Below are positions 22,486-47,454 of a stretch of DNA of 64,000 nt, piece after piece. The position numbers were made by a program, and so were the translations under genes. Within the stretch, counting starts at the first letter, position 1; each line of letters begins with the position of its first letter. The stretch lies in the IMG/VR virus record IMGVR_UViG_3300017747_004150; one strand, written 5' to 3'. The stretch is from an uncultured virus (IMG/VR IMGVR_UViG_3300017747_004150) (lineage: Duplodnaviria; Heunggongvirae; Uroviricota; Caudoviricetes). The notes under the pieces were generated by a model. The model worked only from the letters and a program-made list of their open reading frames with translations. It was not told the DNA's origin and made no database searches.

Positions 22486-23865
22486 TTAAAAAACATCTTC
22501 TGTCGGTGTTGCTTGAATTTCTATTGTTTCTCCGTAATAGTCCGAAAAACGCATAATTTGCTTTTGAAACTTAAAGGCAATTTCTCCTACTGATCCATGC
22601 CGGTTTTTGGCAAGGCTGCCAACCGCCAACCCATCAACAGGATACTCATCGTTTTCCACCAAAAACTTTCCTGTCAAGCCATAATATTCCGGACGCATCA
22701 GAAACAAAACCTGATCAGCATCCGATTCAATATTGCCGGACTCCCTCAAGTCAGACAGCTGGGGAATTTTATCTCCACGTTTTTCAACATCCCGGTTAAG
22801 AGATGCCAAACACACAACGGGTATGTTGAGTTCTTTGGCAATTGTTTTGAGCGTTGCCGACACCTCTCCCATTTCCTGATCCCTGCTGCCAAACTTTCCA
22901 TTTATTGGAGTCCCTGTTATTTTCTGCAGAAAGTCAACAAACAGGATTTGAATCCCATACTTTCGCTTCCAGATGTGGGCCTTTGTTCGAATCGATTGGC
23001 TTCGTACTGACGCTGGATCATCAATGTATATTGGCAGCCTGGCAATTTGCGACTCAAAGTGCGGCAATCTTTTAATATCATCTGGAGTTAGCGAATTGCT
23101 TTTTCGAAGTTTTATTGCCTCTACTCCTGAAAAATTTGAAATCATTCGTTGCGTTAATTGGGCTCCGCTCATTTCAATCGATATAACTCCCACCGATACT
23201 CCTCGTAATGCCAGGTCCATTAAAGTCGAAACCATCCAGCTGGTTTTTCCGGATCCTGGCCGACCACCAACAATCCAAAGATCGGATGGCACAAAACCGC
23301 CCGTAAACTCATCCAAAACTTTTGAACCTGTCGATATACCATTCATGCCGGACTCTTTCGCCAGCGCTCGATTCTGACGCTCTATTTGGATTCTTTGCTC
23401 CATGTTGATATCCGTAGATTTCATAGAGTTCGTCAAAATCCCGGAAATCTCTTTTTGGATGTATTCCGTCACTTCAAAAATGTCGTCCTGATCATTTATG
23501 CTTTTTTGAATTGAATCTGACAAAACCTGGTTTACCTGTATGCGGATGTACTTTTCCAGAAGATACCGGGAATGCATTTCTACGTGAGCGGTTGATGCAA
23601 TCTTTGTGGCCAGTTGAGCAACCGCTTTTGCTCCTCCTACTTTTTCAATGGTGCCATCCTTTTTCAAGGTTTGTACTATGGAGATTAAATCAACCTGTAC
23701 CATTGATGTGCTCATTTTGACAATTGTCGAATAGACAATTCGGTGAGCATTATCTGCAAAGCATTCTGCTGTGGGAAGAATGTCCATTACTACAATCCTG
23801 GCGTGGTTGTCAAGAATCATTGCGCCCAAAACTGCTCTTTCAATTTCTAGTGGATCGTTGTTCAT
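22486..23865 (-). CDS. dnaB: Replicative DNA helicase
   Basis: ERAVLGAM, GGRPGSGKT, SIEMS, VDFLQ, LSDLRESGNIESDAD and KNRHG. Confidence 0.96.
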   Translation of the reverse strand: MNNDPLEIERAVLGAMILDNHARIVVMDILPTAECFADNAHRIVYSTIVKMSTSMVQVDLISIVQTLKKDGTIEKVGGAKAVAQLATKIASTAHVEMHSRYLLEKYIRIQVNQVLSDSIQKSINDQDDIFEVTEYIQKEISGILTNSMKSTDINMEQRIQIERQNRALAKESGMNGISTGSKVLDEFTGGFVPSDLWIVGGRPGSGKTSWMVSTLMDLALRGVSVGVISIEMSGAQLTQRMISNFSGVEAIKLRKSNSLTPDDIKRLPHFESQIARLPIYIDDPASVRSQSIRTKAHIWKRKYGIQILFVDFLQKITGTPINGKFGSRDQEMGEVSATLKTIAKELNIPVVCLASLNRDVEKRGDKIPQLSDLRESGNIESDADQVLFLMRPEYYGLTGKFLVENDEYPVDGLAVGSLAKNRHGSVGEIAFKFQKQIMRFSDYYGETIEIQATPTEDVF

Positions 23866-24638
23866 GGTCTGCTTCTTGGATTTGGTGTTTGTGTATAGGT
23901 GCTCTTATCGTTTGATGGAAACAACGGAGTTAATTTTGGTGCAAAGAATCCATCATAGTTGTTTGACATGGCATCCTCGATAATCTGGGCTGCTACTTCT
24001 TTGTTGCCGGAAGAAAACCGATGTAGCTTCTTAATCATCATCTGAATGCTGTCATCATTTTTGTAAGGTTTTCCTTTGTCTTTTTTGTACTTCAACCACA
24101 TCTCTATTTGCTCTTGCAAACCCATGAAATTAAGCGGCTGTTTGTCCAAAATTTCTTTATTATTCTTTCTTACTTTCTCTTGTATATCTATATGTATATC
24201 TTGAGTATAAATTTTAGACTGTCCTAGTCTAAATTTTAGACTGTCACCGTCTAAATTTTGGACTGTCGTAGTATAAATTTTAGACGGTCCGTCTAACACT
24301 TCAAGTACCTTTTTTGAGATCATTTCCACGTCATTATTTTTGATGTAAATGCCAATTTCTTCTTGGCAAGAATCAAGGTCAAAAATGAACTGAGTTGGCT
24401 TAAGTCCGATGGCGGTACGTTCTAAAAATCCTTTTGTGATCAAAGTGTTGATCGCGTTAAAAACCGTTGCCCTGGAAAGATCCAGCCACTCTGCAATCCG
24501 ATCTTTTGACTTCACGCACTGATACCCATACTTTGGGTTTTGGCTCATTTGCTTTATGTCGCAAAGAACCGCCATTTCATTCAGGCTCAAACAAAGTGCC
24601 TTCCTGATAATGTGATTGGAAAGAGAAATTATGTCCAT
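23862..24638 (-). CDS. Phage replication initiator (HTH; lambda O-like arrangement)
   Basis: HTH IAEWLDLSRATVFNAINTLITKGFLE; internal iterons; C-terminal WLKYKK...AMSNNYDGFF; directly upstream of dnaB. Confidence 0.85.
   Translation of the reverse strand: MDIISLSNHIIRKALCLSLNEMAVLCDIKQMSQNPKYGYQCVKSKDRIAEWLDLSRATVFNAINTLITKGFLERTAIGLKPTQFIFDLDSCQEEIGIYIKNNDVEMISKKVLEVLDGPSKIYTTTVQNLDGDSLKFRLGQSKIYTQDIHIDIQEKVRKNNKEILDKQPLNFMGLQEQIEMWLKYKKDKGKPYKNDDSIQMMIKKLHRFSSGNKEVAAQIIEDAMSNNYDGFFAPKLTPLFPSNDKSTYTQTPNPRSRP
24205..24296. repeat. Four palindromic iterons with 22-bp period (likely replication origin)
   Basis: GT(A/C)TAAATTTT(A/G)GAC(T/G)GTC at 24205, 24227, 24249 and 24271, next to an AT-rich tract (~24150-24204). 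Confidence 0.85.
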
Positions 24639-26361: not shown

Positions 26362-26730
26362 CTAATCCAAGATCATCCAGTCTTCTGCAAGAATATCTGT
26401 TTGTGATGCCAACCAGCCATTGACAATTGAACCATCAGCTGTGTACATGCACAAATATGCTCCAAATTTAATTTTAAAAACTTCTCCGGAAGCTCCTACA
26501 TAATCGCTTTTGTACTTTGAATTCAAAAACAATTTCACTGAATCTGGCAAAGATTTTACATTTTCAATAACAACTTGTGCCGGGATTTCGTCGGCAGGTC
26601 TTTGAAAGACAAACATGTTTTTGCCATTCCATCCAGTCCGTGCCACACGGTTACCCTGTTTTGCGGCCTCAATTGCTTGTCCGAAAGTAAGGGCGTCGAT
26701 TGGTTGTTGTTTTGCTATTAATTCTGACAT
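26362..26730 (-). CDS. DUF2829 / Thoeris anti-defence Tad2-like protein
   Basis: [26 protein letters not shown]...[14 protein letters not shown] family signature. Confidence 0.85.
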
Positions 26731-26761
26731 ATCATTTTTGCCCGTAACGTAGGCTCCCGCT

Positions 26762-27157
26762 TTATATTGTTTTCAATCGTTCAAGTACATCGGCTGAAGT
26801 ATGCCCGTCAAATTTATACTTTGCTTTCTGAACTTCCGGAATGCGGAACAAATCCCAATCCTTTGCTTCGTAGTGGTAGCTGATCTGCCCAGACGGAAGA
26901 ATGGCTACCACAATAAACCACCCACCACCAAAGCAAAATTCCCCATTATTATGTCTCCAGGATTTGTGAACGTCGTGCCTGGCTCCTTGCATTAGGTGAG
27001 ATCCCATGGCATAATCTTTTGCCCACTCGTTAAACAACGCTGCATTAAGGCACTTTCTGGCTTCATACAATTCACCGAAAGTATGGTAGCCATCGCTGAT
27101 CAGATTCGTCTCCACTCCGGAATCTTTAATCTGCTGATTAATTTGTTCTGCTGTCAT
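26762..27157 (-). CDS. WDGH-like domain protein
   Basis: [11 protein letters not shown]...GWFIV...GQISYHY...[13 protein letters not shown]. Confidence 0.75.
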
Positions 27158-27212
27158 AGTCTTTGTTGGTTTCGGCTCGTCTGCGTCCCAGACCCCGATG
27201 GATGGTTGGTTT

Positions 27213-27350
27213 TCATTGTATCCATATTTTTTTAGCGACCTTGTATGCCGTCACGGGGTCAATCCTGAACATAAACGGGTCGTTCTTGCGATACTCCCAT
27301 CTGGCAAAGCAAAGCATGAAAAAGCAGCGTGTAAATCGTAGGTATTTCAT
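27213..27350 (-). CDS. Small hypothetical protein (45 aa)
   Basis: Read manually (MKYLRFTRC...KIWIQ); ATGA-coupled to the upstream gene. Confidence 0.5.
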   Translation of the reverse strand: MKYLRFTRCFFMLCFARWEYRKNDPFMFRIDPVTAYKVAKKIWIQ

Positions 27351-27565
27351 AGTTCGTAGCCCTTTAGTTCGTTGTAGCATTGAAGCATAGAAACTACATC
27401 CCCCTGCATAATCGCTTTTTCGGCAAGACTTATACTTCCCTTCATCATAGCTGCTGCAAATGTACCAGCACCCTCCAGCATAGGATCCTCATACTCTTTG
27501 ATGATCTCCCGTACTCTTTCGATTTCCTTTGGCAATGCGTCTGCCAGTGTGGTTATTTCGCTCAT
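27347..27565 (-). CDS. Hypothetical helical protein (72 aa)
   Basis: Compact ORF in a coupled gene chain (LADALPKEIERVRE...GDVVSML). Confidence 0.75.
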   Translation of the reverse strand: MSEITTLADALPKEIERVREIIKEYEDPMLEGAGTFAAAMMKGSISLAEKAIMQGDVVSMLQCYNELKGYEL

Positions 27566-27566
27566 T

Positions 27567-27776
27567 TCAATTCTCTTTTAAAAACTTCTCGGCACCATCA
27601 AGATCTTTTGTGTGATCGCTATAATGAAACTTTACCAGCTTGTCTTTCATGCTTTTGCCAGACAGCTTCTCTTCGCATGCTTGCTCAATAAACCGGGTAG
27701 CGTTTATGCCGGTTGCCTTTTTGTTCTCCCTGATTCGATCCAGAAGAGCAGTGTCAATTTTTACATTCTGTTTCAT
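27567..27776 (-). CDS. Ribbon-helix-helix DNA-binding protein
   Basis: NVKIDTALLDRIRE...ATGINATRFIEQACEEKL pattern. Confidence 0.65.
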   Translation of the reverse strand: MKQNVKIDTALLDRIRENKKATGINATRFIEQACEEKLSGKSMKDKLVKFHYSDHTKDLDGAEKFLKEN

Positions 27777-27859
27777 ACCCTAAATTAAATCAGAATCTAC
27801 TTGTTTGTGGTATTTTATTCGACAACTCTTCAAGATTTCCGTACAGTTCAATTAAAAAC

Positions 27860-27885
27860 AAAAAAGCCCCAGATAATTCTGAGGC
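27860..27885 (-). terminator. Rho-independent terminator
   Basis: GCCTCAGA-ATTA-TCTGGGGC followed by T6 on the minus strand. Confidence 0.75.
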
Positions 27886-27926
27886 GTTTCAACACATTAC
27901 GTAAAACCAAAATACAAAAAAAGTAA

Positions 27927-28262
27927 TTACAAAGACTCTTTGTCGGACACACGGCTGGTCGCCGATATGCTTTCTGCTAACCCAATTGGCTCAATCACCA
28001 CCAGGTTCAACGTCAATTTTATACCCTTTTCGTTTTGAATTTGAAGAACAACACTACCCGGCTTTAACCCGGTAATCTTTGCACTCTTTTTGTCTGAAGA
28101 CGGAACTATCCGCGATACATCGTCATTGTTGGAAAACCAATCAAGCCGTTTGTCCTGGTAGTCCGTCACCAACTCAATGGTTTTGCCAGCCGGAATATCA
28201 AGCTGGTTGAATTGAGCCCCGACCAATCGGAGCCCATTCCCTAAATTGATTTCTGCCAGCAT
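27927..28262 (-). CDS. Ig-like domain protein
   Basis: WFSNNDDVSRI...AKITGLKPGSVVL pattern. Confidence 0.65.
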   Translation of the reverse strand: MLAEINLGNGLRLVGAQFNQLDIPAGKTIELVTDYQDKRLDWFSNNDDVSRIVPSSDKKSAKITGLKPGSVVLQIQNEKGIKLTLNLVVIEPIGLAESISATSRVSDKESL

Positions 28263-28270
28263 GGTGTCGA

Positions 28271-28603
28271 TTATGCTTTATCGGTTACCACTGAGTTCAC
28301 TCCAATGCTCTGGGCTTCTGCAACACCAACAACACCGATCAGAGAAGCCTCCAGGAAGCGCTCTTCACCAGCATCAAGATCTGCGTCAGCAGTTACCTTT
28401 ACCTCGTAAGATCCGGCTGTGTTTGGAGTAATTTTGCAACTCAAGCCAGTTTCATCCGGAGTGATTGATACATCACCGGAAACAACAGACCATTGTGGAG
28501 CACCATCAACAGTGGCCGGAGCACCAGATTTGGTTGTGAATGAAAGATCAACCGTTTGTTCCTGATCAACGGTCATTGACTGCAATGCGATTGTTTGTGA
28601 CAT
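28271..28603 (-). CDS. Ig-like domain protein
   Basis: DGAPQWSVVSGDVSI...AGSYEVKVTADADL; TACCTTTG -7 box at 28624-28631. Confidence 0.7.
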   Translation of the reverse strand: MSQTIALQSMTVDQEQTVDLSFTTKSGAPATVDGAPQWSVVSGDVSITPDETGLSCKITPNTAGSYEVKVTADADLDAGEERFLEASLIGVVGVAEAQSIGVNSVVTDKA

Positions 28604-28675
28604 GTTTGTAAAAGATTAGGATCCAAAGGTATAAAAACCGAAACTATTTCATGTAAAGTTTTGGGAACATCTTTA

Positions 28676-29176
28676 TTACGCCGATAACAACCGCAGATTC
28701 ATTACATCAACTCCAGTAGAACTCAATTCGGCAATCAGACTATTGATCGCCCCAACGCCCTCCGTCTGCACACCGACCATGTCAAAGCACAACTTCCTGG
28801 TCGCAGCACGAGCACATTTCTGAGTCCCGGTTTCGTAGGCTTGCAGCAAATCCATTTCCATCTCCAGCAAATATTCCAAAACTCCCATCACATATGCCTT
28901 TGGCTCTTTGCCCTCTTTCAAATTAAAATCCACAGCCGGGACCATTGGCACATCCAGTTCAAAATTGAAGTTGTCAGCATACTCCTCCAAAAGAGTCCGG
29001 TGCTTCAATTCCTCCTTTGACTCCTGGCGAAAGAATTTTACAAACCCAGCCAGACCCATACGCAAAGAACATGTGGCTGCATAACGATACGCATTGGAAG
29101 CAAACAACTCGTCCTTTCCTCGGTCGTTAAGAAAATCCTCGTCAGATGAAAGCAGTTGAGATTCGTATTTTTTCAT
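28676..29176 (-). CDS. Ferritin-like protein
   Basis: ELFASNAY...GFVKFFRQESKEELKH ferroxidase-type helix motif and later QTE; TACATTTG -7 box at 29202-29209. Confidence 0.8.
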   Translation of the reverse strand: MKKYESQLLSSDEDFLNDRGKDELFASNAYRYAATCSLRMGLAGFVKFFRQESKEELKHRTLLEEYADNFNFELDVPMVPAVDFNLKEGKEPKAYVMGVLEYLLEMEMDLLQAYETGTQKCARAATRKLCFDMVGVQTEGVGAINSLIAELSSTGVDVMNLRLLSA

Positions 29177-29211
29177 GATATTAACTGGTTACTAGCCAAA
29201 GCAAATGTAAT

Positions 29212-29300
29212 AAAAAAAGCGACCTGGCAGTACCAAGTCGCTTTCACGGATGAAATATCAAGTGTATGAATTTGTAGAAACCGTTACAGTTCCCTGATCA
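29212..29300 (-). ncRNA. Candidate trans-acting antisense sRNA (~85 nt) complementary to early-gene start regions
   Basis: -7 box TAGATTTG (29306-29313); body contains UUCAUACACUUGAUA; ends in terminator AAAGCGACTTGG-TACTG-CCAGGTCGCTTTTTTT. Confidence 0.6.
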
Positions 29301-29310
29301 CAATACAAAT

Positions 29311-29592
29311 CTACAACTCTTTTACCGGTATTGCTATCCGGATGTACCCCGGCTTTCGTCGATGCACCCACTTACCAACGTGAGAAACACACATTTTCTC
29401 GATAAGATCCCCATTTAACCCCCGGTCAACAGCCTCCAACACCAGGTGTTTCACAAACTCATACTCCCGCTGGTCCACATCACAGTCCTTTGGCGCCTTC
29501 CAAAGTCTTTGGCAATACTTCAGCAATTCCCTGGAATCCTCATTCTTATCCAGCAAATCAAATTTTATCAGTTCCTCTCTCGATAGTGGCAT
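29311..29592 (-). CDS. Hypothetical protein (93 aa)
   Basis: ORF directly downstream of the PAPS-reductase-family gene. Confidence 0.7.
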   Translation of the reverse strand: MPLSREELIKFDLLDKNEDSRELLKYCQRLWKAPKDCDVDQREYEFVKHLVLEAVDRGLNGDLIEKMCVSHVGKWVHRRKPGYIRIAIPVKEL

Positions 29593-29594
29593 TT

Positions 29595-30602
29595 TTATTC
29601 ACAAATATTGTAAGCGCTCATGCATCTTGAATCTTCGTCCGCAATCTTCTCCTCAAAAATTACTCCCTGACGATCCAGTTCAGCAAAGTAATTATCCACG
29701 TCCTGCATAGTAATAATCCGGTCACCCTTATGCGATCGGGTATTTCCAACGCCTTTCTTCAGATAGTCCGGACGAAAAAACGTACTCTTCACTTCATTCT
29801 CCAACGCAATAATCTCCTTGATCCGTTCCGGAAAATGCTCACGTATCAGCTTAATTTCACCATGATTGCACAACACACACGGAAAACAACCCACCCTGGA
29901 AAACCCCAGGTAATACAACGGGTTTGGTTTTTGACCATTGGCCAGTATGTAATTCAACACTTCCGCCCCAGTCCAGGAAATTACCGGTCGCAAAATATCA
30001 TCTGCATATTGCTTTCTCCATTCCAGCACTTCCGCCTTCCGATACGTGTAAAACTTCTTGTCCTCTTTCCCTAATGCCAGACGTGCTTTTACTTGAGCCA
30101 TCTGAGCCCTTTCTGTATCACTCAACGCCCTCTTTGCCTCAATCGATTCCAATCTTGCCAATGTCATTGAATTGGATTTGTATGGCTCAAAGTAGTATTT
30201 GAAGAAAGTACACTCCCGGTTTGCACTGGCACGATCAAAACTCTCATCATTCCGAATCCCCTGAATAATAATCAGCGATTCCTTCTGATCAAGAATAAAA
30301 TCAACCATCGGCTTTGATTTTAACTCCTCCGTACAAAACCGGGCCATCCGACTTGGGAACCTTTTCTTTCTTTTAACCAGATCAACCATGCCATTTTCAT
30401 CCAGCTGACTTTTTGCATGCGTTACCTTCACGCCCATCTCACCGCAAACATCCGTGATGTGTTTGTAGGTAACCGGATTCTCCCAGCCCGTATCACAGAA
30501 CACAGCCTCGATCTTATTCAACGCCACACCCATTTCCTTCACAACCCAGATCAATGATGCCTGGCTGTCTTTGCCTCCACTAAACGCTACTACTATTTTC
30601 AT
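29595..30602 (-). CDS. PAPS reductase family protein
   Basis: FSGGKDS, CDTGWE, CTEELK, GIRNDES and SRVGCFPC. Confidence 0.9.
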   Translation of the reverse strand: MKIVVAFSGGKDSQASLIWVVKEMGVALNKIEAVFCDTGWENPVTYKHITDVCGEMGVKVTHAKSQLDENGMVDLVKRKKRFPSRMARFCTEELKSKPMVDFILDQKESLIIIQGIRNDESFDRASANRECTFFKYYFEPYKSNSMTLARLESIEAKRALSDTERAQMAQVKARLALGKEDKKFYTYRKAEVLEWRKQYADDILRPVISWTGAEVLNYILANGQKPNPLYYLGFSRVGCFPCVLCNHGEIKLIREHFPERIKEIIALENEVKSTFFRPDYLKKGVGNTRSHKGDRIITMQDVDNYFAELDRQGVIFEEKIADEDSRCMSAYNICE

Positions 30603-31060
30603 TTTTCTTCAAATTCAATTATTAAACTCCTTTGCTTTTTTGCCATCGGTACCCGCTCATTGGTACCACCCCTCCAAAAGATTTCTGAAGCAATAGTATA
30701 AGATCCACCGTCGCCAAACAACAACTTCAATTCCTTTAACCGGGCAATGCTTCTTGAAATCTGTGGCTGAGATAATTTTAGCTCCTCCGATATTTCCTTC
30801 CTTCTTCTGGCAGTCAACTCAATTTCACCCGTATTCAAAGCCGCCATCGCATTCAACTTGCCAAGCACCTTGTAATCGTCCGCATACTTAATTTCATAGT
30901 ACGGACCCATAAACTGAATGAACGTCATGAAAAACTGATCGGTCGTTTCAACCTTAATCGCAAACCGTTTGTCAATCACCTGGTGAATCACCTCACCCGT
31001 ATTGGAGTCAACTCCCTGCACAGTCGTTTCATGCTTTAAACGAATATTTTTACTACCCAT
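30599..31060 (-). CDS. RepL-like HTH protein
   Basis: VDSNTGEV N-terminal motif; HTH ISEELKLSQPQISRSIARLKE; YTIASEIFWRG; TAATTTTG -7 box at 31084-31091. Confidence 0.7.
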   Translation of the reverse strand: MGSKNIRLKHETTVQGVDSNTGEVIHQVIDKRFAIKVETTDQFFMTFIQFMGPYYEIKYADDYKVLGKLNAMAALNTGEIELTARRRKEISEELKLSQPQISRSIARLKELKLLFGDGGSYTIASEIFWRGGTNERVPMAKKQRSLIIEFEEK

Positions 31061-31126
31061 AAATTATTGATTTTTAACGTCAACAAAATTACAGAATCTG
31101 AACGAAATTGACAAGAGAAATCAATA

Positions 31127-31166
31127 CCATTGACGTATATGTCAAACCCATTGACGTATGTGTCAA
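31127..31166. repeat. Tandem palindromic operator/iteron pair, 21-bp period
   Basis: CCATTGACGTATATGTCAA (31127-31145) and CCATTGACGTATGTGTCAA (31148-31166). Confidence 0.85.
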
Positions 31167-32044
31167 GTTCATTGATTTTTGTAAACACTTAAATTAATGT
31201 AAATCACATACTTACAAAATAGGCCCTTCTTATCTGATTGTATATCTTTTTCACTTAGGTACCAACACCAATATTGACCTGGATTTAACCCTGGTTTTTG
31301 ACTCAAAAAAGACCCAGATCATCATCAAAATAAAAGACCTGGAAAGTAATCGAAAAGTAAAGGACAACAAGACTACATATGGGTTTGATTGCATGAAAGG
31401 ATACGGACGATTTTGATGTTGATTTGAAAGCAATGGACGATTCTGCTACCGGGCACGGCACGGCCCCCGGAGCCGCGGGCGGGTGGGCAAGCGAAAAGTG
31501 GCGAGTGGGGGGTCGGTTTTGCGGTGTGCGGGCGAAAGCATGGTCGTTCGGTCGGTCTGACTGTCGTCGACGCGGAAAGGGCAGGTCGGATTGACTCGAA
31601 CATGCGATCACATCCTGAAACCACCGAGGAAAGGGCAGTCGTTAGCCCGCGACGTTCTGATTTGTGCGGGCAGATGGTCATCAGGTCGGACACATTCGAA
31701 TGTCGACGCGTAGAAATCGGGGAAACTGGTGCAAAGTCTTGATCACTGGGGAAAAAATGAAGAGGGCAGGACAAAAGAGCGGAGCCGGTGTGCGAAAGGT
31801 AGCCGGAAACTTACGGACAAATTCAAACCGACATCGACCAGGCGAATTGATCTTCTTCAAAATCTGGATCTCAAAATCTGGTTGGTTTTTTCTGCTTTCT
31901 GTCTGTTTGGATTTTTTTCGAAGGCCAGTCAACCAAACCAAAACAAACCACATTCTCAACTTGATCAACTTATTAATCGCGGGTGCGTATGTGCGCGTAA
32001 GAAAGAATATTTTCTAACATTATAGGAATTATCAAAAGTTTATG

Positions 32045-32052
32045 TATGTTTG
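32045..32052 (+). promoter_or_regulatory. Early promoter -7 box TATGTTTG
   Basis: TAnnTTTG match at the start of the plus-strand gene block. Confidence 0.6.
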
Positions 32053-32115
32053 TCAGGTCGAAAGCGCGAAGGGATTTGCGGGAGTAGCGTTAACAATCTA
32101 ATTATCAAGTGTTTT

Positions 32116-32319
32116 ATGAAAAATCTATCAAATTTAGGGCTGTCTTACATGGGCTTTGGTGCCCTATTAATGTTCTTCGCGGGCTTCGCTGAGAACATGT
32201 TCGTGCTTGCTTCAGGCGGGTTATTTGTTTGCGTTGGTGGAGTGTTGCGGGTTATTGCATGGGAGTCTGTGCAGGACTCTAGCGAACAGGATTGGGAGTA
32301 TTTTTATTCATCCAACTAA
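32116..32319 (+). CDS. Small two-TM membrane protein
   Basis: ATG after the TATCAAGTGT motif; two hydrophobic segments. Confidence 0.7.
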   Translation: MKNLSNLGLSYMGFGALLMFFAGFAENMFVLASGGLFVCVGGVLRVIAWESVQDSSEQDWEYFYSSN

Positions 32320-32332
32320 ACCAGATACGGAA

Positions 32333-32476
32333 ATGGCAAAGCAAATCAACAGGGCAGAGACCGCTCAAGCACTTGCAAAGGCGATTGCATTTAAGCAATG
32401 CGGAAAGGATAAAGAAGCGGCGGAATGGGCTGCGAAATTGGTTCATTTGTTGGAGTGTGCGCAAATCCTGAAATAG
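32333..32476 (+). CDS. Small hypothetical protein (47 aa)
   Basis: MAKQINRAETAQALAKAIAFKQCGK..., helical. Confidence 0.65.
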   Translation: MAKQINRAETAQALAKAIAFKQCGKDKEAAEWAAKLVHLLECAQILK

Positions 32477-32477
32477 T

Positions 32478-32882
32478 ATGTTGACCAAAGTACAGAAATT
32501 AGAATTGGCCTTGGATGCTGCAAAGCGGGCAGAAAGGGGTTCACAAGTGACGGATGTTAAAATATTGCGTTCAATTGAAGCCGCGGGGTTTTGCGTGTTT
32601 GCAGAAGAAACGGGTAAGCCATACGGCTACACAAAAGGCACTGCTAACCACGTACAAAGTGTTTCAGACGGGGTTTTTCAGGTTGACGGAAATAGGTATT
32701 ACGGCCAAAAATTAGGTGGCTGGATGCGGATTTTTAAAATGCCAAAATCGGATGCTTGCAGCATGGTTTTACAGTTAATGGATAAAGATTTTGCCTATTT
32801 GGATGCTGTCCGCATTGCATTGGCATTGCATTCAGAGGAAACGGAATCGGGACTTTGTCAGGAATTGGAGCAATACATTTAA
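32478..32882 (+). CDS. Hypothetical early protein
   Basis: 134-aa ORF in a tight tandem array. Confidence 0.7.
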   Translation: MLTKVQKLELALDAAKRAERGSQVTDVKILRSIEAAGFCVFAEETGKPYGYTKGTANHVQSVSDGVFQVDGNRYYGQKLGGWMRIFKMPKSDACSMVLQLMDKDFAYLDAVRIALALHSEETESGLCQELEQYI

Positions 32883-32892
32883 GAAAAATATC

Positions 32893-33231
32893 ATGATCAA
32901 GATAACGCTACAAATTGACTCCATTGCACGTTTGTGCAATGGATTTGAACAGGCCAACGAAATGGCTGAAACGATTTTCAAAACCGGAAGATTCAGCGAT
33001 GTTTCTTACCATGTCCAGGACGGAAGCTTTACATGGTCCGGACGCATTGACCTGGAGCCCGCAAGTTTTCACAATACACACCGGGACCAGATCATTACGT
33101 GGCATTTGCGGACCATGTGCACAAACATTGCCAAATGTGATAAAGTTTGGATGTTTAAGCCCGGCATGATGAATGCGGCTAAAAATGACTGTATCGAAAT
33201 GCTTTCTATTCTTCCACCTTCAAAAAATTAA
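32893..33231 (+). CDS. Hypothetical early protein
   Basis: Likely start MIKITL at 32893. Confidence 0.7.
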   Translation: MIKITLQIDSIARLCNGFEQANEMAETIFKTGRFSDVSYHVQDGSFTWSGRIDLEPASFHNTHRDQIITWHLRTMCTNIAKCDKVWMFKPGMMNAAKNDCIEMLSILPPSKN

Positions 33232-33235
33232 CAAC

Positions 33236-33490
33236 ATGAAAAAGCTACTGGTTATCGCGGCACTTATCGGTCTATCATCCTGCACAAAGCAGGATGATAT
33301 TATCACTCCTAGTGTACTGGTCAGGGAGGTCGCAACAAGTCCAATTTACTACGCGGAAATCCTGCACAAAAACCTGTACAAAGTAGGCGATACTATTCGC
33401 ATTCAATACAATCAAATGCCGCGGCACGAAAAGGCATATCCAAGCAAACAACGGTATTTGTATACCACGGTCGTAATTATTAAAATCTAA
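33236..33490 (+). CDS. Lipoprotein
   Basis: MKKLLVIAALIGLSS-CTKQDD: lipobox followed by a K/D-rich segment. Confidence 0.75.
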   Translation: MKKLLVIAALIGLSSCTKQDDIITPSVLVREVATSPIYYAEILHKNLYKVGDTIRIQYNQMPRHEKAYPSKQRYLYTTVVIIKI

Positions 33491-33502
33491 CAAAAAACCA
33501 AT

Positions 33503-33712
33503 ATGGCAAGTAAAGAGAAAGACAAAGCCCTGTTTGTGGCATTTTACTACTTTGAAGTAGGGCATCCAAACGCTACCCTTTGGCAGACGTTTGACGACGT
33601 TTACAAAATGGCTGAGGAATTTGTGGAAACCTACGACATAAACGACGGGTGGGAAGATAGATCCTTTGAGGACTATATGGTTGAATTCATTAAAGCCCGC
33701 GTCGATTACTAA
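33503..33712 (+). CDS. Small acidic early protein
   Basis: 69 aa; start region AAAAACCAATATG. Confidence 0.7.
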   Translation: MASKEKDKALFVAFYYFEVGHPNATLWQTFDDVYKMAEEFVETYDINDGWEDRSFEDYMVEFIKARVDY

Positions 33713-33713
33713 A

Positions 33714-33760
33714 AACCCGAATGGTTCTTTGTTTCCGGTTCGATTCCGGAAACGGGTTCA
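33714..33760 (+). ncRNA. tRNA-like top-half element (T-loop hairpin plus acceptor-like stem)
   Basis: TTTCCGG-TTCGATT-CCGGAAA stacked on AACCCG/CGGGTT; no anticodon arm. Confidence 0.55.
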
Positions 33761-33796
33761 ATGGCAATATTGCCAGATTTATAAAATTCAAGTTAT

Positions 33797-34039
33797 ATGA
33801 ACAGACTAACATTAAAAGCACTTTTACTGGATACCATTACTTTCCTGAAATTTGGGCATCATACTGCACCAAACTGGAGAAACGCAAAGGTTGAACTTTG
33901 CACATTACTGGGGCAAAAATCCAATATTAGCGCGAAGCAATTACTTGCGGGCATTGGACTGGTTTATCGGGATAATGAAATTGAAGAAGAATTTTGGGCT
34001 GTTATTGACAAATTCGACGCGGCCAAATTTTTAGATTAA
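33797..34039 (+). CDS. Hypothetical early protein
   Basis: 80 aa; TCAAGT motif upstream. Confidence 0.7.
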   Translation: MNRLTLKALLLDTITFLKFGHHTAPNWRNAKVELCTLLGQKSNISAKQLLAGIGLVYRDNEIEEEFWAVIDKFDAAKFLD

Positions 34040-34061
34040 TCAACATCATTTTATCAAGTAT

Positions 34062-34691
34062 ATGAAAACAATTGAAATTAATGTCTATCAGTTCAGTGAA
34101 TTGTCAGACGAAGCCAAAGAAGTGGCAAGAGAATGGTACAGAAACACAAGTTTCGAAAATGGCTTTGCATGGTCCGGCGAAGCCTATGACAGCCTGAAAG
34201 CCTTTTGCAAAAGGTTTAATATTAAATACCGGAGTGCATGCTTTTCGCAATACTCTGAAGTGAATTACTCCCTTTCTGATATTGACGATACAATTTTGGA
34301 CCTATCCGGAAAAAAGCTTATTTCCTATTTATGGAATTATGACGATTTGATCATTCAGAGAAAAACCTACTGGTTTGTCCGAAAGCCAGACGGGACCAGA
34401 TACATGAATGCAATAGGCCAAAATTCTGGTAAGTACGTTTCGAAATGCCAATGGCAGCCCGCGGAATGTCCATTTACCGGAGTTTGTTTTGATGATGATT
34501 TGCTGCAACCTTTCCAAAACGCGGTTAGAAAAGGATACGTTGGAACTTTTGGCGATTTGCTTGAAGACTGTATTCAGGCATGGATTAAGTCCGCTAATGC
34601 AGACTGCAAAGGCCAGCTGTCAGACTCTTACATTGACGAACACTTAGAAATTAATAACTACGAATTTACTGAAGACGGAAAAAGATATTAA
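34062..34691 (+). CDS. Conserved phage early protein
   Basis: VYQFSELSDEAKEVAREW...NNYEFTEDG termini, familiar from small early phage proteins; function unknown. Confidence 0.75.
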   Translation: MKTIEINVYQFSELSDEAKEVAREWYRNTSFENGFAWSGEAYDSLKAFCKRFNIKYRSACFSQYSEVNYSLSDIDDTILDLSGKKLISYLWNYDDLIIQRKTYWFVRKPDGTRYMNAIGQNSGKYVSKCQWQPAECPFTGVCFDDDLLQPFQNAVRKGYVGTFGDLLEDCIQAWIKSANADCKGQLSDSYIDEHLEINNYEFTEDGKRY

Positions 34692-34692
34692 G

Positions 34693-34980
34693 ATGAAAAA
34701 AATGCTATTCACTTGCCTTTTGCTGATAGGATTTTCAGCCCAGGCACAACAAAAACCAAATGTAACAATTGACGCGAAGGGAAACTTTCGCGCAATTGCC
34801 AAACGCGATACGGCGATACAGACTGATAGATTTTTCATTGACTCAAAGGGGCAGTTATGCCCTGTTTGGAGATCCGGAAATGGAAAGCTATTTGCCATTC
34901 GAATTTCCAGAAAAACGGGTAACCCCTACAAGTTTTACCTGAAACCAAATACAGATCTTCACGATTGGGAAGGTAACTAA
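34693..34980 (+). CDS. Secreted protein
   Basis: Signal peptide MKKMLFTCLLLIGFSAQA followed by Gln (Bacteroidota Q-rule). Confidence 0.75.
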   Translation: MKKMLFTCLLLIGFSAQAQQKPNVTIDAKGNFRAIAKRDTAIQTDRFFIDSKGQLCPVWRSGNGKLFAIRISRKTGNPYKFYLKPNTDLHDWEGN

Positions 34981-34987
34981 AAACGGC

Positions 34988-35036
34988 TCCTGTTTCCGAA
35001 ATTGGTTAATCCGGCTCAGAACCGGAAACAGGACAA
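34988..35036 (+). ncRNA. tRNA-like top-half element
   Basis: 7-bp TCCTGTT/AACAGGA plus 5-bp TCCGG-CTCAGAA-CCGGA; T-loop is non-canonical. Confidence 0.45.
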
Positions 35037-35073
35037 TGCGATGATGCAGATTAATTTTTATCAAGTGTAATTT

Positions 35074-35475
35074 ATGATTGACATTAAAAAGGAAAAGCAG
35101 AAAATGGTGGACAAAATCCTGACGGACTGCCGCGTATTTTTCGCGTTCTCAAATTCTCAATTTGAGGAAGGAAAAAAAGAAACTCCACTGGAAGAAGGTG
35201 ACAAATACATTTCAATCGGTGCTGGTGGATACATGCCAAAATCTAAACTAGCTGAATTTGAAAAAGGATTCAAAGACATGAAAGCATGGTATAAAAAAAC
35301 CATTAAAGAAAACAAGGAAGCACGACGAGCTTTGATAGTTAAAGAATTGGCAAACCATGAAGCTTATTATACCTGCTGCATTGCAGATACATTGGTAGCA
35401 CTTGGAAAAGACTTCAAGCCAAAAGAAGTTTGGGCAGTATTCAATGCAGAAAGACAATTTCAAGAACTCTATTGA
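35074..35475 (+). CDS. Conserved hypothetical early protein
   Basis: FFAFSNSQFEEG...SIGAGGY...ELANHEAYYT. Confidence 0.75.
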   Translation: MIDIKKEKQKMVDKILTDCRVFFAFSNSQFEEGKKETPLEEGDKYISIGAGGYMPKSKLAEFEKGFKDMKAWYKKTIKENKEARRALIVKELANHEAYYTCCIADTLVALGKDFKPKEVWAVFNAERQFQELY

Positions 35476-35477
35476 TT

Positions 35478-35723
35478 ATGACATTATCAGAATATTTGAA
35501 TCCAGAACGACCAGTGGAACGCCTGGACAGTGGAGTAGTTAAGCTTCAGGAAAATGAAGTAACTGTATGGACAAACACGGCTGCAAAATGCCGTGTTGCT
35601 ACTATCAAACTTTTTGACAAACATTACCAATACCGTACCAGCACTTTGAACAGCAAGACTCTTTACGCGATTGACGAAAGAGGAAAACCTTACAAAGCAT
35701 CCGTTTTTAGCCTTGACTTTTAA
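35478..35723 (+). CDS. Hypothetical early protein
   Basis: Likely start MTLSEY at 35478. Confidence 0.65.
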   Translation: MTLSEYLNPERPVERLDSGVVKLQENEVTVWTNTAAKCRVATIKLFDKHYQYRTSTLNSKTLYAIDERGKPYKASVFSLDF

Positions 35724-35734
35724 CCAATACCATC

Positions 35735-35950
35735 ATGTTACCAATACATTTCGAACCATTACCGGACTACATCCTGCCACATATCAAAGTCAGACATTTG
35801 CAGGAAGCAAGGTTGACCATTTCCGCGGGGAACCTGATTCAGTTAATCGGGGCACGCCACAAGGACCGACCTATTAACCAGTTCGCCACTCAGCAACCAG
35901 TCCGTTGGTTTGCGGCCAAATTATTAGCCGAAACCCTTTGCCTTAATTAG
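35735..35950 (+). CDS. Hypothetical early protein
   Basis: 71-aa ORF in the array. Confidence 0.6.
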   Translation: MLPIHFEPLPDYILPHIKVRHLQEARLTISAGNLIQLIGARHKDRPINQFATQQPVRWFAAKLLAETLCLN

Positions 35951-35971
35951 TAATCCAATACAAGAAATTCT

Positions 35972-36208
35972 ATGAAAACGACATTATTCAGCTGGTATGC
36001 CGAAAATTATCCAAGTGATGATTTAGGTAGTGAAATACACAAAGTTTATACGTTTGAAAATTTGGATGCAGCCCTTAATAGTGGGCAAAATCCTTATCGC
36101 ATCATTGGCGTATCTGATAGCATAATCAGAGAACGTCTTTTCGAAAAACTTGCAGAGTTAAAGCAGGTGGAATATTCAGAAGTTTACAATAAATGGCTAT
36201 CAGCATGA
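35972..36208 (+). CDS. Hypothetical early protein
   Basis: 78 aa; DSIIRERLFEKLAE. Confidence 0.7.
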   Translation: MKTTLFSWYAENYPSDDLGSEIHKVYTFENLDAALNSGQNPYRIIGVSDSIIRERLFEKLAELKQVEYSEVYNKWLSA

Positions 36209-36555
36209 AAACAGAAATTTTAGAAAAATCAGAACCATCGCTTTGTGCGGTTTGTAGTTCACACGGCGTTTTGACAATCAATGCCATTACTGGGGAAGTT
36301 GTTTCGATTAATCTGGAAGAACCGGAAAGCGAAGAAGGAAAAGACCTTGCATCCATTGCAAGGTTTGACCTTGAAGAATGGAAGGGCAAATATCAGAAAT
36401 CAGAACTGCCGAAATCCATTGACATTTTAGACCTGGGCTACTGGTACGGAAACAATCCGGAGCAGTACGAAGAACCAGCACATGACTGGAGAATTGAAAC
36501 CGAAGAAATGCGGAAAGACGACAACGTGGGAACCTATAACCTTATCAATTTTTAA
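36205..36555 (+). CDS. Acidic hypothetical early protein
   Basis: ATGA coupling; DILDLGYW. Confidence 0.7.
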   Translation: MKTEILEKSEPSLCAVCSSHGVLTINAITGEVVSINLEEPESEEGKDLASIARFDLEEWKGKYQKSELPKSIDILDLGYWYGNNPEQYEEPAHDWRIETEEMRKDDNVGTYNLINF

Positions 36556-37011: not shown

Positions 37012-37047
37012 ATACTTGGCGATTCATTAATTTTTAAAATCAAGTCT

Positions 37048-37212
37048 ATGAAAACATTTGAAATTTATTTTATCGACGAACGCGGCAGCAGAGTAACTGT
37101 AAAAGTTCAGGCATGCGATCAGAAAGAGGCCAGGAGAAACGCACGCACTCAAACGCATAGATTGAACATGCGAATGATTGGCGGCCCAACAGAAGCTTTT
37201 GAAACAGCTTAA
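37048..37212 (+). CDS. Small hypothetical protein (54 aa)
   Basis: Read manually (MKTFEIYFIDERG...); ATCAAGTCTATG start motif. Confidence 0.65.
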   Translation: MKTFEIYFIDERGSRVTVKVQACDQKEARRNARTQTHRLNMRMIGGPTEAFETA

Positions 37213-37672: not shown

Positions 37673-38080
37673 ATGGCGAAGTATTCAATTATTTTGGTTG
37701 AGAGACACTCCGGTGGAGTTGTTTCTGGTCCTTGGGTTCAGGATGTAATAGGAACTCCGGCTGAAGCAGTAGCCGCAACACTTGCGACCTACAATGCAAA
37801 TGGCAAGAAAAACCACTATGCACTCATTCCACAGGTTACATCCATTAATTCTGCCCATGAATTGTTTCATGAAATAATTCATGAATTATGGCCAGAACCG
37901 TCAGCATTTGCCATAGACACTCCAAATCCAGAGTTGAAAAGGATGATGTCCACCGGGCTGGAGGCAATACACCACCTCAAAGAAGTTGTGGGAATGCTTG
38001 GTGCTGAATGGTATCAAGTAGATGAAGTAGCCGATGCCATAAAATTCATGAAAACCATTGATCCGGATTATACGCCATGA
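37673..38080 (+). CDS. Hypothetical early protein
   Basis: Likely start MAKYSI at 37673. Confidence 0.7.
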   Translation: MAKYSIILVERHSGGVVSGPWVQDVIGTPAEAVAATLATYNANGKKNHYALIPQVTSINSAHELFHEIIHELWPEPSAFAIDTPNPELKRMMSTGLEAIHHLKEVVGMLGAEWYQVDEVADAIKFMKTIDPDYTP

Positions 38081-40646: not shown

Positions 40647-40676
40647 TTTTTAACAACCAATTTTCAAATCAAGTTT

Positions 40677-40976
40677 ATGCAAGTAGATTCAAGCATGTTC
40701 ACTGACGTTAGCTATAACGCAGAGAAAAACATCCTATCCGTTACATGGAAGGCATCCGGCAGGGTCACATACTATTACGATGTTCCGGCCGAATTGTGGG
40801 AGAAAGCCCAATCAGCGGAGTCCATTGGTAAGTTCTACAATGCCGAGATCAAAGGTCGGTATGATACGGACGAAACACGGGCCGCAGCGATGGCTCAGTC
40901 ACATGTCCATTCTGCCCCAGATTCAGGGCAGCAGCAAAAAAATAGTTCAAATTCAAACGACAACGACGTCTGGTAA
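40677..40976 (+). CDS. KTSC domain protein
   Basis: VDSSMFTDVSYN...YYYDVP...AESIGKFYNAEIKGRY. Confidence 0.85.
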   Translation: MQVDSSMFTDVSYNAEKNILSVTWKASGRVTYYYDVPAELWEKAQSAESIGKFYNAEIKGRYDTDETRAAAMAQSHVHSAPDSGQQQKNSSNSNDNDVW

Positions 40977-45175: not shown

Positions 45176-45177
45176 AA

Positions 45178-45731: not shown

Positions 45732-45781
45732 GACTACCCCAATAGAATGAAAGCATTGACGGCTCGGAAAGACGGGCAAAT

Positions 45782-45864: not shown

Positions 45865-45867
45865 CAA

Positions 45868-46257: not shown

Positions 46258-46297
46258 TACTATTTGAACAACTTTTAAATTTGGTGTATAAAAATCG

Positions 46298-47442: not shown

Positions 47443-47454
47443 ATAAGTGAATTT

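What the first reader, a model, noticed from the sequence alone, without database searches (positions are those of the whole stretch)
29212..29313. Candidate phage sRNA antisense to a motif shared by six early-gene start regions
Seen: a ~85-nt intergenic unit on the minus strand runs from a TAnnTTTG box (TAGATTTG, 29306-29313) to a GC-rich terminator (29212-29244). Its middle reads TATCAAGTGTATGAA on the plus strand (29256-29270) and leads only to a 3-codon ORF. The same motif overlies or just precedes starts of plus-strand early genes: 34052 (14/15), 37039 (13/14), 40668 (11/12), 35059 (11/11), 32103 (10/10) and 33788 (TCAAGT...TATGAA). ACGG/CCGT flanks could display the antisense stretch as a loop. 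Inference: one trans-acting sRNA, transcribed from the opposite genome arm, silences a set of early genes by covering their initiation sites. I know of no description of this in Bacteroidota phages.
Basis: partly seen in the sequence, partly recalled or inferred. Interest (0 to 1): 0.9.

Follow-up and report, generated by a model that had tools for sequence, protein, structure and literature searches.

The report
Possible anti-leader RNA in phage
A short non-coding spacer in an uncultured freshwater phage carries, on the opposite strand, the best copy of a motif that sits just before the start codons of several of the phage's small genes, so its RNA might switch those genes off, but nothing yet shows that it does.

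Summary
Spacer 29177-29310 lies between two minus-strand genes of a novel phage, probably of a Bacteroidota host. It holds a strong minus-strand terminator (29245-29215), a TAGATTTG box on the upstream stop codon, and TATCAAGTGTATGAA (29256-29270).

That 15-mer belongs to a leader motif, (T/A)ATCAAGT 2-7 nt before ATG. TCAAGT lies within 16 nt of the ATG in 6 of 11 plus-strand genes that follow a gap, and in 0 of 31 packed genes. In a matrix built from five other copies it is the best site in the window; 0 of 100 simulated windows reached its score. The spacer's transcribed strand therefore carries the complement of the leader consensus, 11 nt before the terminator and mostly unpaired.

- The promoter box is weak (G at -10, GC-rich upstream), so a 3'-UTR tail is as likely as a separate sRNA.
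- Predicted duplexes are modest (-13.7 to -15.2 kcal/mol for four targets, two weaker).
- 24 non-start sites score better.
- No relative carries the locus or the motif.

My odds: antisense regulator 0.35, inert relic 0.30, DNA-level or plus-strand element 0.20.

The parts
29306..29313 (-). TAGATTTG, a -7-like box (TAnnTTTG) overlapping the TAG stop of the 93-aa ORF. It is a doubtful promoter.
   Evidence: Sequence. Listed among the 8 intergenic boxes. It has G at -10 and a GC-rich upstream context.
29277..29295 (-). Weak 5' hairpin (8 pairs, several of them G-U).
   Evidence: Predicted. The 56-nt 5' part has z = 0.10, no better than shuffles.
29256..29270 (-). Anti-leader stretch. The minus-strand RNA reads UUCAUACACUUGAUA, the complement of the plus-arm leader consensus plus AUG.
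   Evidence: Top matrix site of the window, 22.6 bits, reached by 0 of 100 simulated windows. Opening energy 2.7 kcal/mol.
29208..29245 (-). Intrinsic terminator: a 13-14-pair stem, 3-nt loop and a run of seven U.
   Evidence: top of the list. z = -5.24 for 29212-29270. The hairpin is weaker on the plus strand.
29202..29209 (-). TACATTTG box, 26 nt before the ATG of the ferritin-like gene. It is that gene's own promoter candidate.
29311..29592 (-). 93-aa ORF of unknown family, the last gene of the HTH / PAPS-reductase-like operon. Its 3' UTR is the spacer.
   Evidence: No PHROG or Pfam hit.
28676..29176 (-). Ferritin-like gene downstream of the terminator.
   Evidence: Pfam PF00210, E = 3.7e-8. 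The homologue in relative G001 sits elsewhere and abuts its upstream gene.
32103..32117 (+). Leader motif copy before gene 32116-32319, the first plus-arm gene.
   Evidence: Duplex -15.2 kcal/mol.
33788..33802 (+). Partial leader copy (TCAAGTTATATGAAC) before gene 33797-34039.
   Evidence: Not among the 16 best duplexes.
34052..34066 (+). Leader motif copy before gene 34062-34691 (phrog_10310).
   Evidence: The start is confirmed by the profile alignment from residue 2. Duplex -14.5 kcal/mol.
35059..35073 (+). Leader motif copy before gene 35074-35475 (DUF7659).
   Evidence: Duplex -14.2 kcal/mol.
37038..37052 (+). Leader motif copy before gene 37048-37212.
   Evidence: Duplex -13.7 kcal/mol.
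40667..40681 (+). Leader motif copy before gene 40677-40976 (KTSC domain).
   Evidence: Not among the 16 best duplexes.
32045..32052 (+). TATGTTTG box, 64 nt before the first plus-arm gene. It is the candidate promoter of the plus arm.
31084..31091 (-). TAATTTTG box, 24 nt before the HTH gene. It is the candidate promoter of the operon that ends at the terminator.

Best explanation
The spacer is the 3' end of the leftward operon: an HTH protein, a PAPS-reductase-like protein and a 93-aa ORF, probably driven from the box at 31091. It may additionally be a small transcript of its own from the weak box at 29313. In either case the RNA that ends at terminator 29245-29215 carries UUCAUACACUUGAUA in an unpaired stretch 11 nt before the terminator stem. 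That sequence is the complement of the leader-plus-AUG consensus of the rightward arm.

I propose that this tail, intact or processed, pairs with the start regions of the plus-arm genes that must initiate on their own. The clearest candidates are 32116, 34062, 35074 and 37048; 40677 and 33797 pair more weakly. Pairing would block ribosome loading, and through translational coupling it would lower expression of the tightly packed genes behind each target.

Shown: the sequence anatomy, motif membership and in-silico pairing enrichment. Inferred: that the RNA accumulates, that it pairs in vivo, the direction of the effect, and that the plus arm is 'early'.
For: - The 29256 copy is the best match in the window to a matrix built from five other leader copies (22.6 bits against 17.9-21.4 for the training sites). 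None of 100 simulated windows reached that score.
- It is the only high-scoring copy outside the plus arm, and it lies where the minus strand is the transcribed one.
- The terminator is strong and strand-specific.
- The anti-leader stretch is mostly unpaired and costs 2.7 kcal/mol to open.
- The linker pairs at -13.5 kcal/mol or better with 5 of 29 plus-arm start regions, against 0.71 +/- 0.78 in dinucleotide shuffles; 0 of 300 shuffles reach 5.
- The motif marks genes that initiate independently: 6 of 11 gap-preceded plus genes against 0 of 31 packed ones, Fisher p = 8.8e-5 on my own hand-made gene model.
- Three target starts are confirmed by family alignments that begin at residues 2-12.
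- An indel polymorphism (a G inserted behind 29246 in about half the depth of run X1) fits a non-coding spacer and spares both the seed and the stem.
Against: - No relative carries the locus or the motif. The closest syntenic contig, G001, has neither, so there is no conservation or covariation evidence.
- The promoter box is atypical: G at -10, and 47% A+T upstream.
- A similar box also sits between stop codon and terminator at 46276, which shows that such boxes occur in 3' UTRs without implying an sRNA.
- Duplex energies are modest, and the best energy is not exceptional: 197 of 300 shuffles reach an equal or lower minimum.
- Over all 87 start regions the enrichment is weak: 6 reach -13.5 kcal/mol against 2.95 in shuffles, and 18 of 300 shuffles reach 6.
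- A whole-window scan lists 24 non-self sites at -17.8 to -23.3 kcal/mol, none of them at a start codon.
- Two of the six named targets pair poorly, and one good scorer (34693) lacks the motif.
- The 5' part of the unit has no structure beyond chance.
Confidence: 0.35

Rival explanations
1. Inert relic. The spacer is simply a 3' UTR plus terminator. The 15-mer is an orphan copy of the leader cassette, left by recombination at a module junction (the mobile ferritin-like gene), and has no function on either strand.
For: - Repeated leader or regulatory cassettes are common in the small-gene arms of this phage group. MW202828.1 carries GTGTCGTTAACGACAC before 7 of 13 starts examined, and two of those leaders are identical over about 40 nt.
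- The ferritin-like gene sits at a different place in relative G001 and lacks the spacer there, so this junction is recombinant.
- Terminators 40-65 nt after a stop codon are normal here: 27885-27866 follows the stop at 27927.
- No conservation can be shown.
Against: - A decaying relic would not be expected to be the best consensus match in the window.
- There is no flanking homology to any leader.
- The genome is 93% coding on my gene model, so idle sequence is scarce. Fifteen bases is, however, very little sequence.
Confidence: 0.3
2. DNA-level or plus-strand element. The motif is a binding site for a phage regulator, or part of a phage-specific promoter, and the 29256 copy does the same job as the others. 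For example, it could start or block transcription running antisense into the leftward operon.
For: - A related copy, AATTATCAAAAGTTT (32027-32041), lies directly upstream of the plus-arm box at 32045 (13/15 to 32100-32114).
- TTATCAA is enriched before plus-arm starts, 5 against 0.14 expected.
- The reverse complement of five of the seven sites I compared by eye (32103 and 33788 do not fit) reads TAnnCTTG, one mismatch from the -7 consensus (my reading of the sequences).
- Two HTH proteins are encoded nearby, at 30599-31060 and 23862-24638.
Against: - No second conserved block lies at a fixed distance. The upstream AT-rich runs largely reflect stop codons of the preceding genes.
- Spacing to the ATG varies from 2 to 7 nt, as for a translation signal.
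- No plus-strand ORF or plus-strand -7 box lies near 29256; the nearest plus-strand boxes are at 28429 and 32045.
- The motif is not palindromic.
Confidence: 0.2
3. The leader motif is recognised by a protein: a RegA-like translational repressor or a RegB-like nuclease. Shut-off of these genes would then be protein-mediated, and the inverted copy in the spacer would be incidental.
For: - T4 RegA represses about 30 mRNAs through A+U-rich sites that overlap the AUG.
- T4 RegB cuts a motif in early start regions.
- Both statements come from passages of PMC3014915. The logic of a shared tag on many start regions is the same.
Against: - No RegA, RNA-binding or nuclease family of that kind was found in the 84 window proteins scanned with Pfam.
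- None was found in the 54 proteins scanned with PHROGs.
- Most proteins here have no family, so this is weak evidence.
- This reading does not explain the consensus-quality inverted copy.
Confidence: 0.1

Closest known systems
3'-UTR-derived base-pairing sRNAs that share the parent mRNA's terminator (CpxQ/SdhX type in enterobacteria; recalled, apart from the GlnA 3'-UTR example seen as a listing and abstract start, PMC9731577)
   Same: The seed lies just upstream of the operon's own terminator hairpin, and no strong promoter of its own is needed. The proposed action is pairing in trans with start regions.
   Different: The carrier here is a phage and the host is probably a Bacteroidota, a phylum I recall as lacking Hfq. 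The targets would be the phage's own genes, sharing one leader motif. Processing and accumulation are unknown.
c4 antisense RNA of phages P1/P7
   Same: A phage RNA that represses phage genes. Passages of PMC8198154 say that full repression of ant needs the C4 antisense RNA; that it does so by pairing at the ribosome-binding region is my recollection.
   Different: c4 acts within its own immI operon on one mRNA of a temperate phage. Here six scattered targets lie on the other arm. No Rfam family, C4 included, reached its gathering score in the window or came near it in the spacer.
T4 RegA translational repressor and its operators
   Same: One regulator and many early mRNAs, with recognition of an unstructured A+U-rich tag that overlaps or just precedes the AUG (passages of PMC3014915).
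   Different: RegA is a protein, whereas here the regulator would be an RNA. No RegA homologue was found.
P22 sar, lambda OOP and aQ antisense RNAs
   Same: Small phage RNAs that block expression of phage genes by base pairing (section 2 of the review PMC12197685).
   Different: Those RNAs are cis-encoded, fully complementary and have a single target. This one would be trans-encoded, with a short seed and several targets.

Membership tests
Trans-encoded base-pairing sRNA (independent gene) | Own promoter directly upstream | tested here: inconclusive
   TAGATTTG fits TAnnTTTG. However, it has G at -10, which is virtually absent in F. johnsoniae promoters (passages of PMC6847099). Its upstream context has the lowest A+T of the 8 intergenic boxes.
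Trans-encoded base-pairing sRNA (independent gene) | Intrinsic terminator at the 3' end | tested here: met
   Stem of 13-14 pairs plus seven U on the minus strand.
Trans-encoded base-pairing sRNA (independent gene) | Accessible seed complementary to target start regions beyond chance | tested here: met
   5 of 29 plus-arm start regions reach -13.5 kcal/mol or better, against 0.71 in shuffles; 0 of 300 shuffles reach 5. Opening energy is 2.7 kcal/mol. However, 24 non-start sites score better.
Trans-encoded base-pairing sRNA (independent gene) | Discrete small transcript accumulates | not testable with these tools
   This needs strand-specific RNA data from infected cells, which I could not obtain here.
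Trans-encoded base-pairing sRNA (independent gene) | Seed conserved or covarying with its targets in relatives | tested here: inconclusive
   No relative with the locus was found in the phage records, IMG/VR, metagenome contigs or genome contigs. Distant relative G001 lacks both motif and spacer.
3'-UTR-derived sRNA | Shares the terminator of the upstream mRNA, with the seed next to that terminator | tested here: met
   The stop is at 29311, the seed at 29270-29256 and the stem from 29245. There is no other terminator in between.
3'-UTR-derived sRNA | Released by processing, or from an internal promoter | not testable with these tools
   This needs 5'-end mapping.
C4 antisense RNA family (P1/P7/P4) | Match to the Rfam covariance model | tested here: not met
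   The only window hit at gathering score is a tRNA. The permissive scan of 29100-29400 lists five hits, all at 12-20 bits and far below their gathering scores, and none is C4.
RegA-type operator set | A RegA-like RNA-binding repressor is encoded | tested here: not met
   No such family was found among 84 proteins scanned with Pfam or 54 scanned with PHROGs. Many proteins remain without a family.
Bacteroidota-host phage | No Shine-Dalgarno sequences, host-type -7 boxes before genes, and relatives on Bacteroidota hosts | tested here: met
   - Gene upstream regions lack GGAG-type motifs.
- Eight TAnnTTTG boxes are intergenic, four of them 21-26 nt before an ATG.
- Of 87 terminase hits, 86 are Flavobacterium, Cellulophaga, Tenacibaculum or Maribacter phages, at about 25% identity.
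- Five of 6 genome loci with the PAPS-reductase-like gene are Bacteroidota.
- The host itself is unknown.

The most novel reading that the evidence does not exclude
Phages of hosts that lack Shine-Dalgarno sequences tag their independently initiated small genes with a private leader motif. They then carry one 'anti-leader' RNA, here the tail of the regulator operon on the opposite arm, that acts as a global translational off-switch for that gene class. This would be an RNA counterpart of T4 RegA. Eight unverified notes from this scan describe the same anatomy in other, unrelated phages, two of them of Bacteroidota type. If those hold up, this would be a recurrent and so far undescribed class.
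Probability: 0.25. Interest if true: 0.8.

Novelty: new variant of a known kind. Interest (0 to 1): 0.45.

Why it matters
If real, one short RNA would time the expression of a whole block of phage genes by masking a shared start-region tag. That would be a new way for a virus to run its early-to-middle switch, in a host phylum where translation starts without Shine-Dalgarno pairing. Little appears to be in print on phage RNA regulators in that phylum:
- the 2025 review of phage sRNAs does not contain the words Bacteroid, Flavobacter or crAss (term search);
- none of the 15 listed of the 17 papers matching 'phage-encoded', 'small RNA', 'Bacteroid' and 'antisense' describes such a case (titles and abstract starts only).

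It would also give a simple sequence rule for finding such regulators: look for an inverted copy of the phage's own leader consensus next to a terminator. If it is a relic, the useful result is the leader motif itself, which marks the plus-arm genes that initiate on their own.

Tried and rejected
- **RNA evidence.** No RNA holder was listed for 26500-36400. Two DNA runs were laid, kept as contigs only, so they give no strand, start or level information.
- **Relatives.**
  - blastn of 27000-33000 against the phage records gave no match.
  - IMG/VR scans with the ferritin-like protein and the terminase found nothing.
  - PAPS-reductase-like homologues reach at most 55% identity (47% over the full length) across 7 viral, 53 metagenome and 6 genome loci. 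Neighbour synteny was checked for the 60 viral and metagenome loci only: a few carry a DnaB-type helicase or HTH_36 homologue, and none carries the genes flanking the spacer.
  - DnaB relatives at 64-65% (7 loci) share almost nothing else.
  - Homologues of target gene 34062 are 25-34% identical. Six of the nine have GGAG-type (Shine-Dalgarno-like) leaders and none has the ATCAAGT motif.
- **Motif in other loci.** ATCAAGTNTATGAA occurs in 0 of the 7 loci held at that time.
- **Whole genome.** None is held for this window.
- **Known RNA families.** Rfam gave nothing at gathering score apart from a tRNA, and nothing near it in the spacer.
- **Full-length duplex folding.** Folding the 90-nt RNA against start regions gave artefacts: long loops, with the terminator and U-tail pairing. 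I discarded it and used the 31-nt linker instead.
- **ACGG/CCGU loop display.** It is not the predicted fold, and the inserted G behind 29246 in run X1 falls in that flank.
- **Sigma-70-type promoter scan.** It is uninformative here: 33 sites found against 36 expected.
- **My first automatic gene chain** was poor. I replaced it with a hand-curated list.
- **Earlier notes of this scan.** There are none for this genome or this sequence.

Full report
**What the window is.**
- The 64-kb window is a phage with no close relative in any collection I could search.
- Its terminase matches 87 phage records at about 25% identity. Eighty-six of them are Flavobacterium, Cellulophaga, Tenacibaculum or Maribacter phages.
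- Genes show no Shine-Dalgarno motif. Host-type TAnnTTTG boxes lie 21-26 nt before several start codons.
- Five of 6 genome loci that hold a homologue of its PAPS-reductase-like gene are Bacteroidota. A Bacteroidota host is therefore a reasonable inference, but it is not shown.
- The one run that holds most of the stretch is labelled a freshwater metagenome and may be the source sample itself.
- Genes run leftward from about 31060 and rightward from 32116. The leftward arm holds an HTH protein, a PAPS-reductase-like protein, a 93-aa ORF, a ferritin-like protein, a Tad2-like protein, helicases, SSB, RusA, terminase and a polyvalent protein of more than 2600 aa. The rightward arm holds about 40 mostly small genes of unknown function, plus RecT-like and exonuclease genes.
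- Calling the rightward arm 'early' is an inference from this layout.

**The observation.**
- The spacer 29177-29310 lies between the 93-aa ORF (29311-29592) and the ferritin-like gene (28676-29176), both on the minus strand.
- It contains a minus-strand hairpin of 13-14 pairs followed by seven U, which heads the 22 terminator-like sites listed for 24-43 kb; that count is itself no more than shuffles give (mean 20.0). The 59-nt stretch 29212-29270 has z = -5.24.
- Three of the pairs are G-U, so the hairpin is weaker on the plus strand. This fits an RNA-level role on the minus strand.
- Directly after the U-run comes TACATTTG (29209-29202), 26 nt before the ferritin ATG. That gene therefore has its own promoter candidate.

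**The motif family.**
- ATCAAGT occurs 11 times on the plus strand and 3 times on the minus strand. Six plus copies lie in 32.1-40.7 kb, and five of them sit 2-7 nt before the ATG of genes 32116, 34062, 35074, 37048 and 40677. A shorter TCAAGT precedes 33797.
- In regions upstream of plus-arm starts, TCAAGT is seen 6 times against 0.35 expected and ATCAAGT 5 times against 0.14. Neither appears among the k-mers enriched before minus-strand genes.
- On my hand-curated gene list, 6 of 11 plus genes that follow a gap of 20 nt or more (or are first) carry TCAAGT within 16 nt of the ATG, against 0 of 31 tightly packed genes (Fisher p = 8.8e-5).
- The variable 2-7 nt spacing, and the position where homologues in other phages carry GGAG-type leaders (6 of the 9 examined), suggest a translation-start signal for genes that cannot rely on coupling. 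That is inference.

**Is the spacer copy more than chance?**
- A single 14/15 match is not. blastn-short gives E = 1.5, and other parts of the spacer find equally good random partners.
- The family test is clear, however. A matrix built from five leader copies, without 29256, ranks 29256 first in the whole window on both strands, at 22.6 bits against 17.9-21.4 for the training sites. None of 100 simulated windows reached that score.
- The spacer therefore holds a true, consensus-quality copy in the opposite transcriptional context.

**Pairing tests.**
- In the predicted fold of the 96-nt minus-strand RNA, the complement of the motif lies between a weak 5' hairpin and the terminator and is mostly unpaired. 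Forcing all 15 nt open costs 2.7 kcal/mol.
- I folded the 31-nt linker against 87 start regions. Five of the 29 plus-arm regions between 32 and 41 kb reach -13.5 kcal/mol or better. Shuffled linkers give 0.71 +/- 0.78, and 0 of 300 reach 5.
- The evidence against is of similar weight:
  - Over all 87 start regions the count is 6 against 2.95, and 18 of 300 shuffles reach 6.
  - The best energy is ordinary; 197 of 300 shuffles do as well.
  - One of the five scorers (34693) has no motif.
  - 40677 and 33797 are not among the 16 best.
  - A scan of both strands of the window lists 24 non-self sites at -17.8 to -23.3 kcal/mol, none at a start codon.
- The signal is therefore the shared motif, not an unusually strong duplex.

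**Promoter or 3' UTR?**
- TAnnTTTG occurs 53 times in the window, about what chance gives. Eight copies are intergenic although only 6.6% of the sequence is, and at least seven of those face a gene on their own strand.
- The box at 29313 is the poorest of the eight. It has G at -10, which passages of PMC6847099 report as virtually absent among 241 F. johnsoniae promoters, with the start 4-5 nt after the box. Its upstream 40 nt are 47% A+T, against 53-80% for the others.
- A comparable box at 46276 also lies between a stop codon and the plus-arm terminator.
- The 56-nt 5' part is not structured beyond chance (z = 0.10).
- I therefore regard a 3'-UTR tail of the HTH / PAPS-reductase-like / 93-aa operon as at least as likely as a separate sRNA gene. 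The proposed pairing does not depend on which it is.

**Relatives.**
- None of the searches found the locus.
- The best syntenic relative is a 69-kb IMG/VR contig (G001): terminase 28-30%, DnaB 64%, ferritin-like 36% and HTH 34% identity. It has the same two-arm layout and a similar noncoding region of about 1 kb between the arms.
- Its small-gene leaders are A-rich without ATCAAGT, and its ferritin-like gene abuts the preceding gene with no spacer.
- A more distant freshwater podophage, MW202828.1, shows a different repeated cassette, the hairpin GTGTCGTTAACGACAC, before 7 of 13 small-gene starts.
- Private repeated leaders are thus a habit of this group. Conservation or covariation of the anti-leader could not be tested.

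**Explanations.**
- *Antisense tail or sRNA (0.35).* This is the only reading that explains why the best consensus copy sits inverted, unpaired and next to a terminator in a transcribed spacer.
- *Inert relic at a recombinant junction (0.30).* It needs no new mechanism and fits the mobility of the ferritin-like gene. It does not explain the consensus quality of the copy.
- *DNA-level or plus-strand element (0.20).* It is supported by a related copy next to the plus-arm promoter box and by the resemblance of the motif's reverse complement to TAnnCTTG. It is weakened by the variable spacing to the ATG and the lack of a second conserved block.
- *Protein recogniser of the leader, RegA- or RegB-like (0.10).* This remains possible, but no such family was found in the 84 proteins scanned with Pfam or the 54 scanned with PHROGs.

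**Comparison with what is known.**
- The proposed mechanism works like a 3'-UTR-derived base-pairing sRNA, and like the P1/P7 c4 RNA in that a phage RNA represses phage genes (passages of PMC8198154).
- Its logic is that of T4 RegA: one regulator and a shared tag over many start codons (passages of PMC3014915).
- It is not a member of any Rfam family.
- The phage sRNAs covered in section 2 of the 2025 review are lambda OOP, aQ and PreS, P22 sar, 24B_1, VpdS and the PAK_P4 antisense RNAs. They are either cis-antisense to one gene or act on host genes.
- A term search of the same review found no occurrence of Bacteroid, Flavobacter or crAss.
- My full-text search for 'phage-encoded', 'small RNA', 'Bacteroid' and 'antisense' matched 17 papers. 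None of the 15 listed describes such a case, judging by titles and abstract starts only.

**Earlier notes of this scan.** Eight unverified AI notes describe the same anatomy in other phages. Two concern Bacteroidota-type phages, and one of those claims a conserved 3'-UTR element. I did not test any of them. They are leads, not support, and they may reflect what the first-stage reader tends to look for.

**Verdict.** The sequence observation is real and statistically sound, and the idea is attractive, but it rests on one genome with no expression or conservation evidence. I score interest at 0.45. If the idea were confirmed, it would be a new variant of a known kind.

Noticed in passing
window 31121-31180: Two tandem 21-nt repeats (TCAAnnCCATTGACGTATrTG) and a partial third, with a palindromic core TTGACGTATATGTCAA. 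They lie just upstream of the leftward promoter box at 31091 and are probably operators for one of the HTH proteins.
   Followed up: partly
window 31200-32040; L073 (G001 61,100-62,100): About 1 kb of non-coding DNA lies between the two arms, with a GC-rich repeat-bearing core (31440-31700). The distant relative G001 has a similar gap of about 1 kb, filled with C-rich and then purine-rich low-complexity sequence. This could be an origin or a structured RNA; I did not examine it.
   Followed up: partly
window 32027-32041: AATTATCAAAAGTTT matches the first leader (32100-32114) at 13/15 and sits directly before the plus-arm box TATGTTTG (32045). TTATCAA may be a motif in its own right: it also occurs as TTATCAATTTTTAA before 36559 and 37392.
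   Followed up: partly
window 38012-38026: An internal motif copy (TATCAAGTAGATGAA, 16.2 bits) lies inside gene 37673-38080 and is followed by a two-codon mini-ORF, ATG AAG TAG. The spacer copy likewise leads to a three-codon mini-ORF.
   Followed up: no
window 46276-46330: A TAAATTTG box and then a strong hairpin with a T-run follow the last plus-arm gene. The tRNA-Ile(GAT) gene lies at 45782-45865, just upstream.
   Followed up: partly
window 1-7848 (minus): A giant open-ended ORF of more than 2616 aa has an ADP-ribosyltransferase (ART-PolyVal) domain and an SNF2/ResIII helicase domain. It is a 'polyvalent protein' of the kind carried by some phages and conjugative elements.
   Followed up: no
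window 26362-26730 and 26762-27157 (minus): A Tad2-like (Thoeris anti-defence) domain protein lies next to a WDGH-domain protein.
   Followed up: no
window 29246: In run X1 one contig, about half the depth (15.9 of 30.1), has a G inserted behind 29246. This is a strain polymorphism between the terminator and the anti-leader stretch.
   Followed up: no
L061 (MW202828.1) 44530-49900: The hairpin cassette GTGTCGTTAACGACAC recurs 15-45 nt before 7 of 13 small-gene starts. Two of the leaders are identical over about 40 nt. It may be a repeated promoter or regulatory hairpin.
   Followed up: partly
window 34062 and 37048: Both genes start ATGAAAACAwTTGAAATT (MKT[I/F]EI). The 54-aa ORF may be a truncated paralogue of the 209-aa phrog_10310 gene, whose homologues in other phages keep the same N-terminus.
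   Followed up: partly
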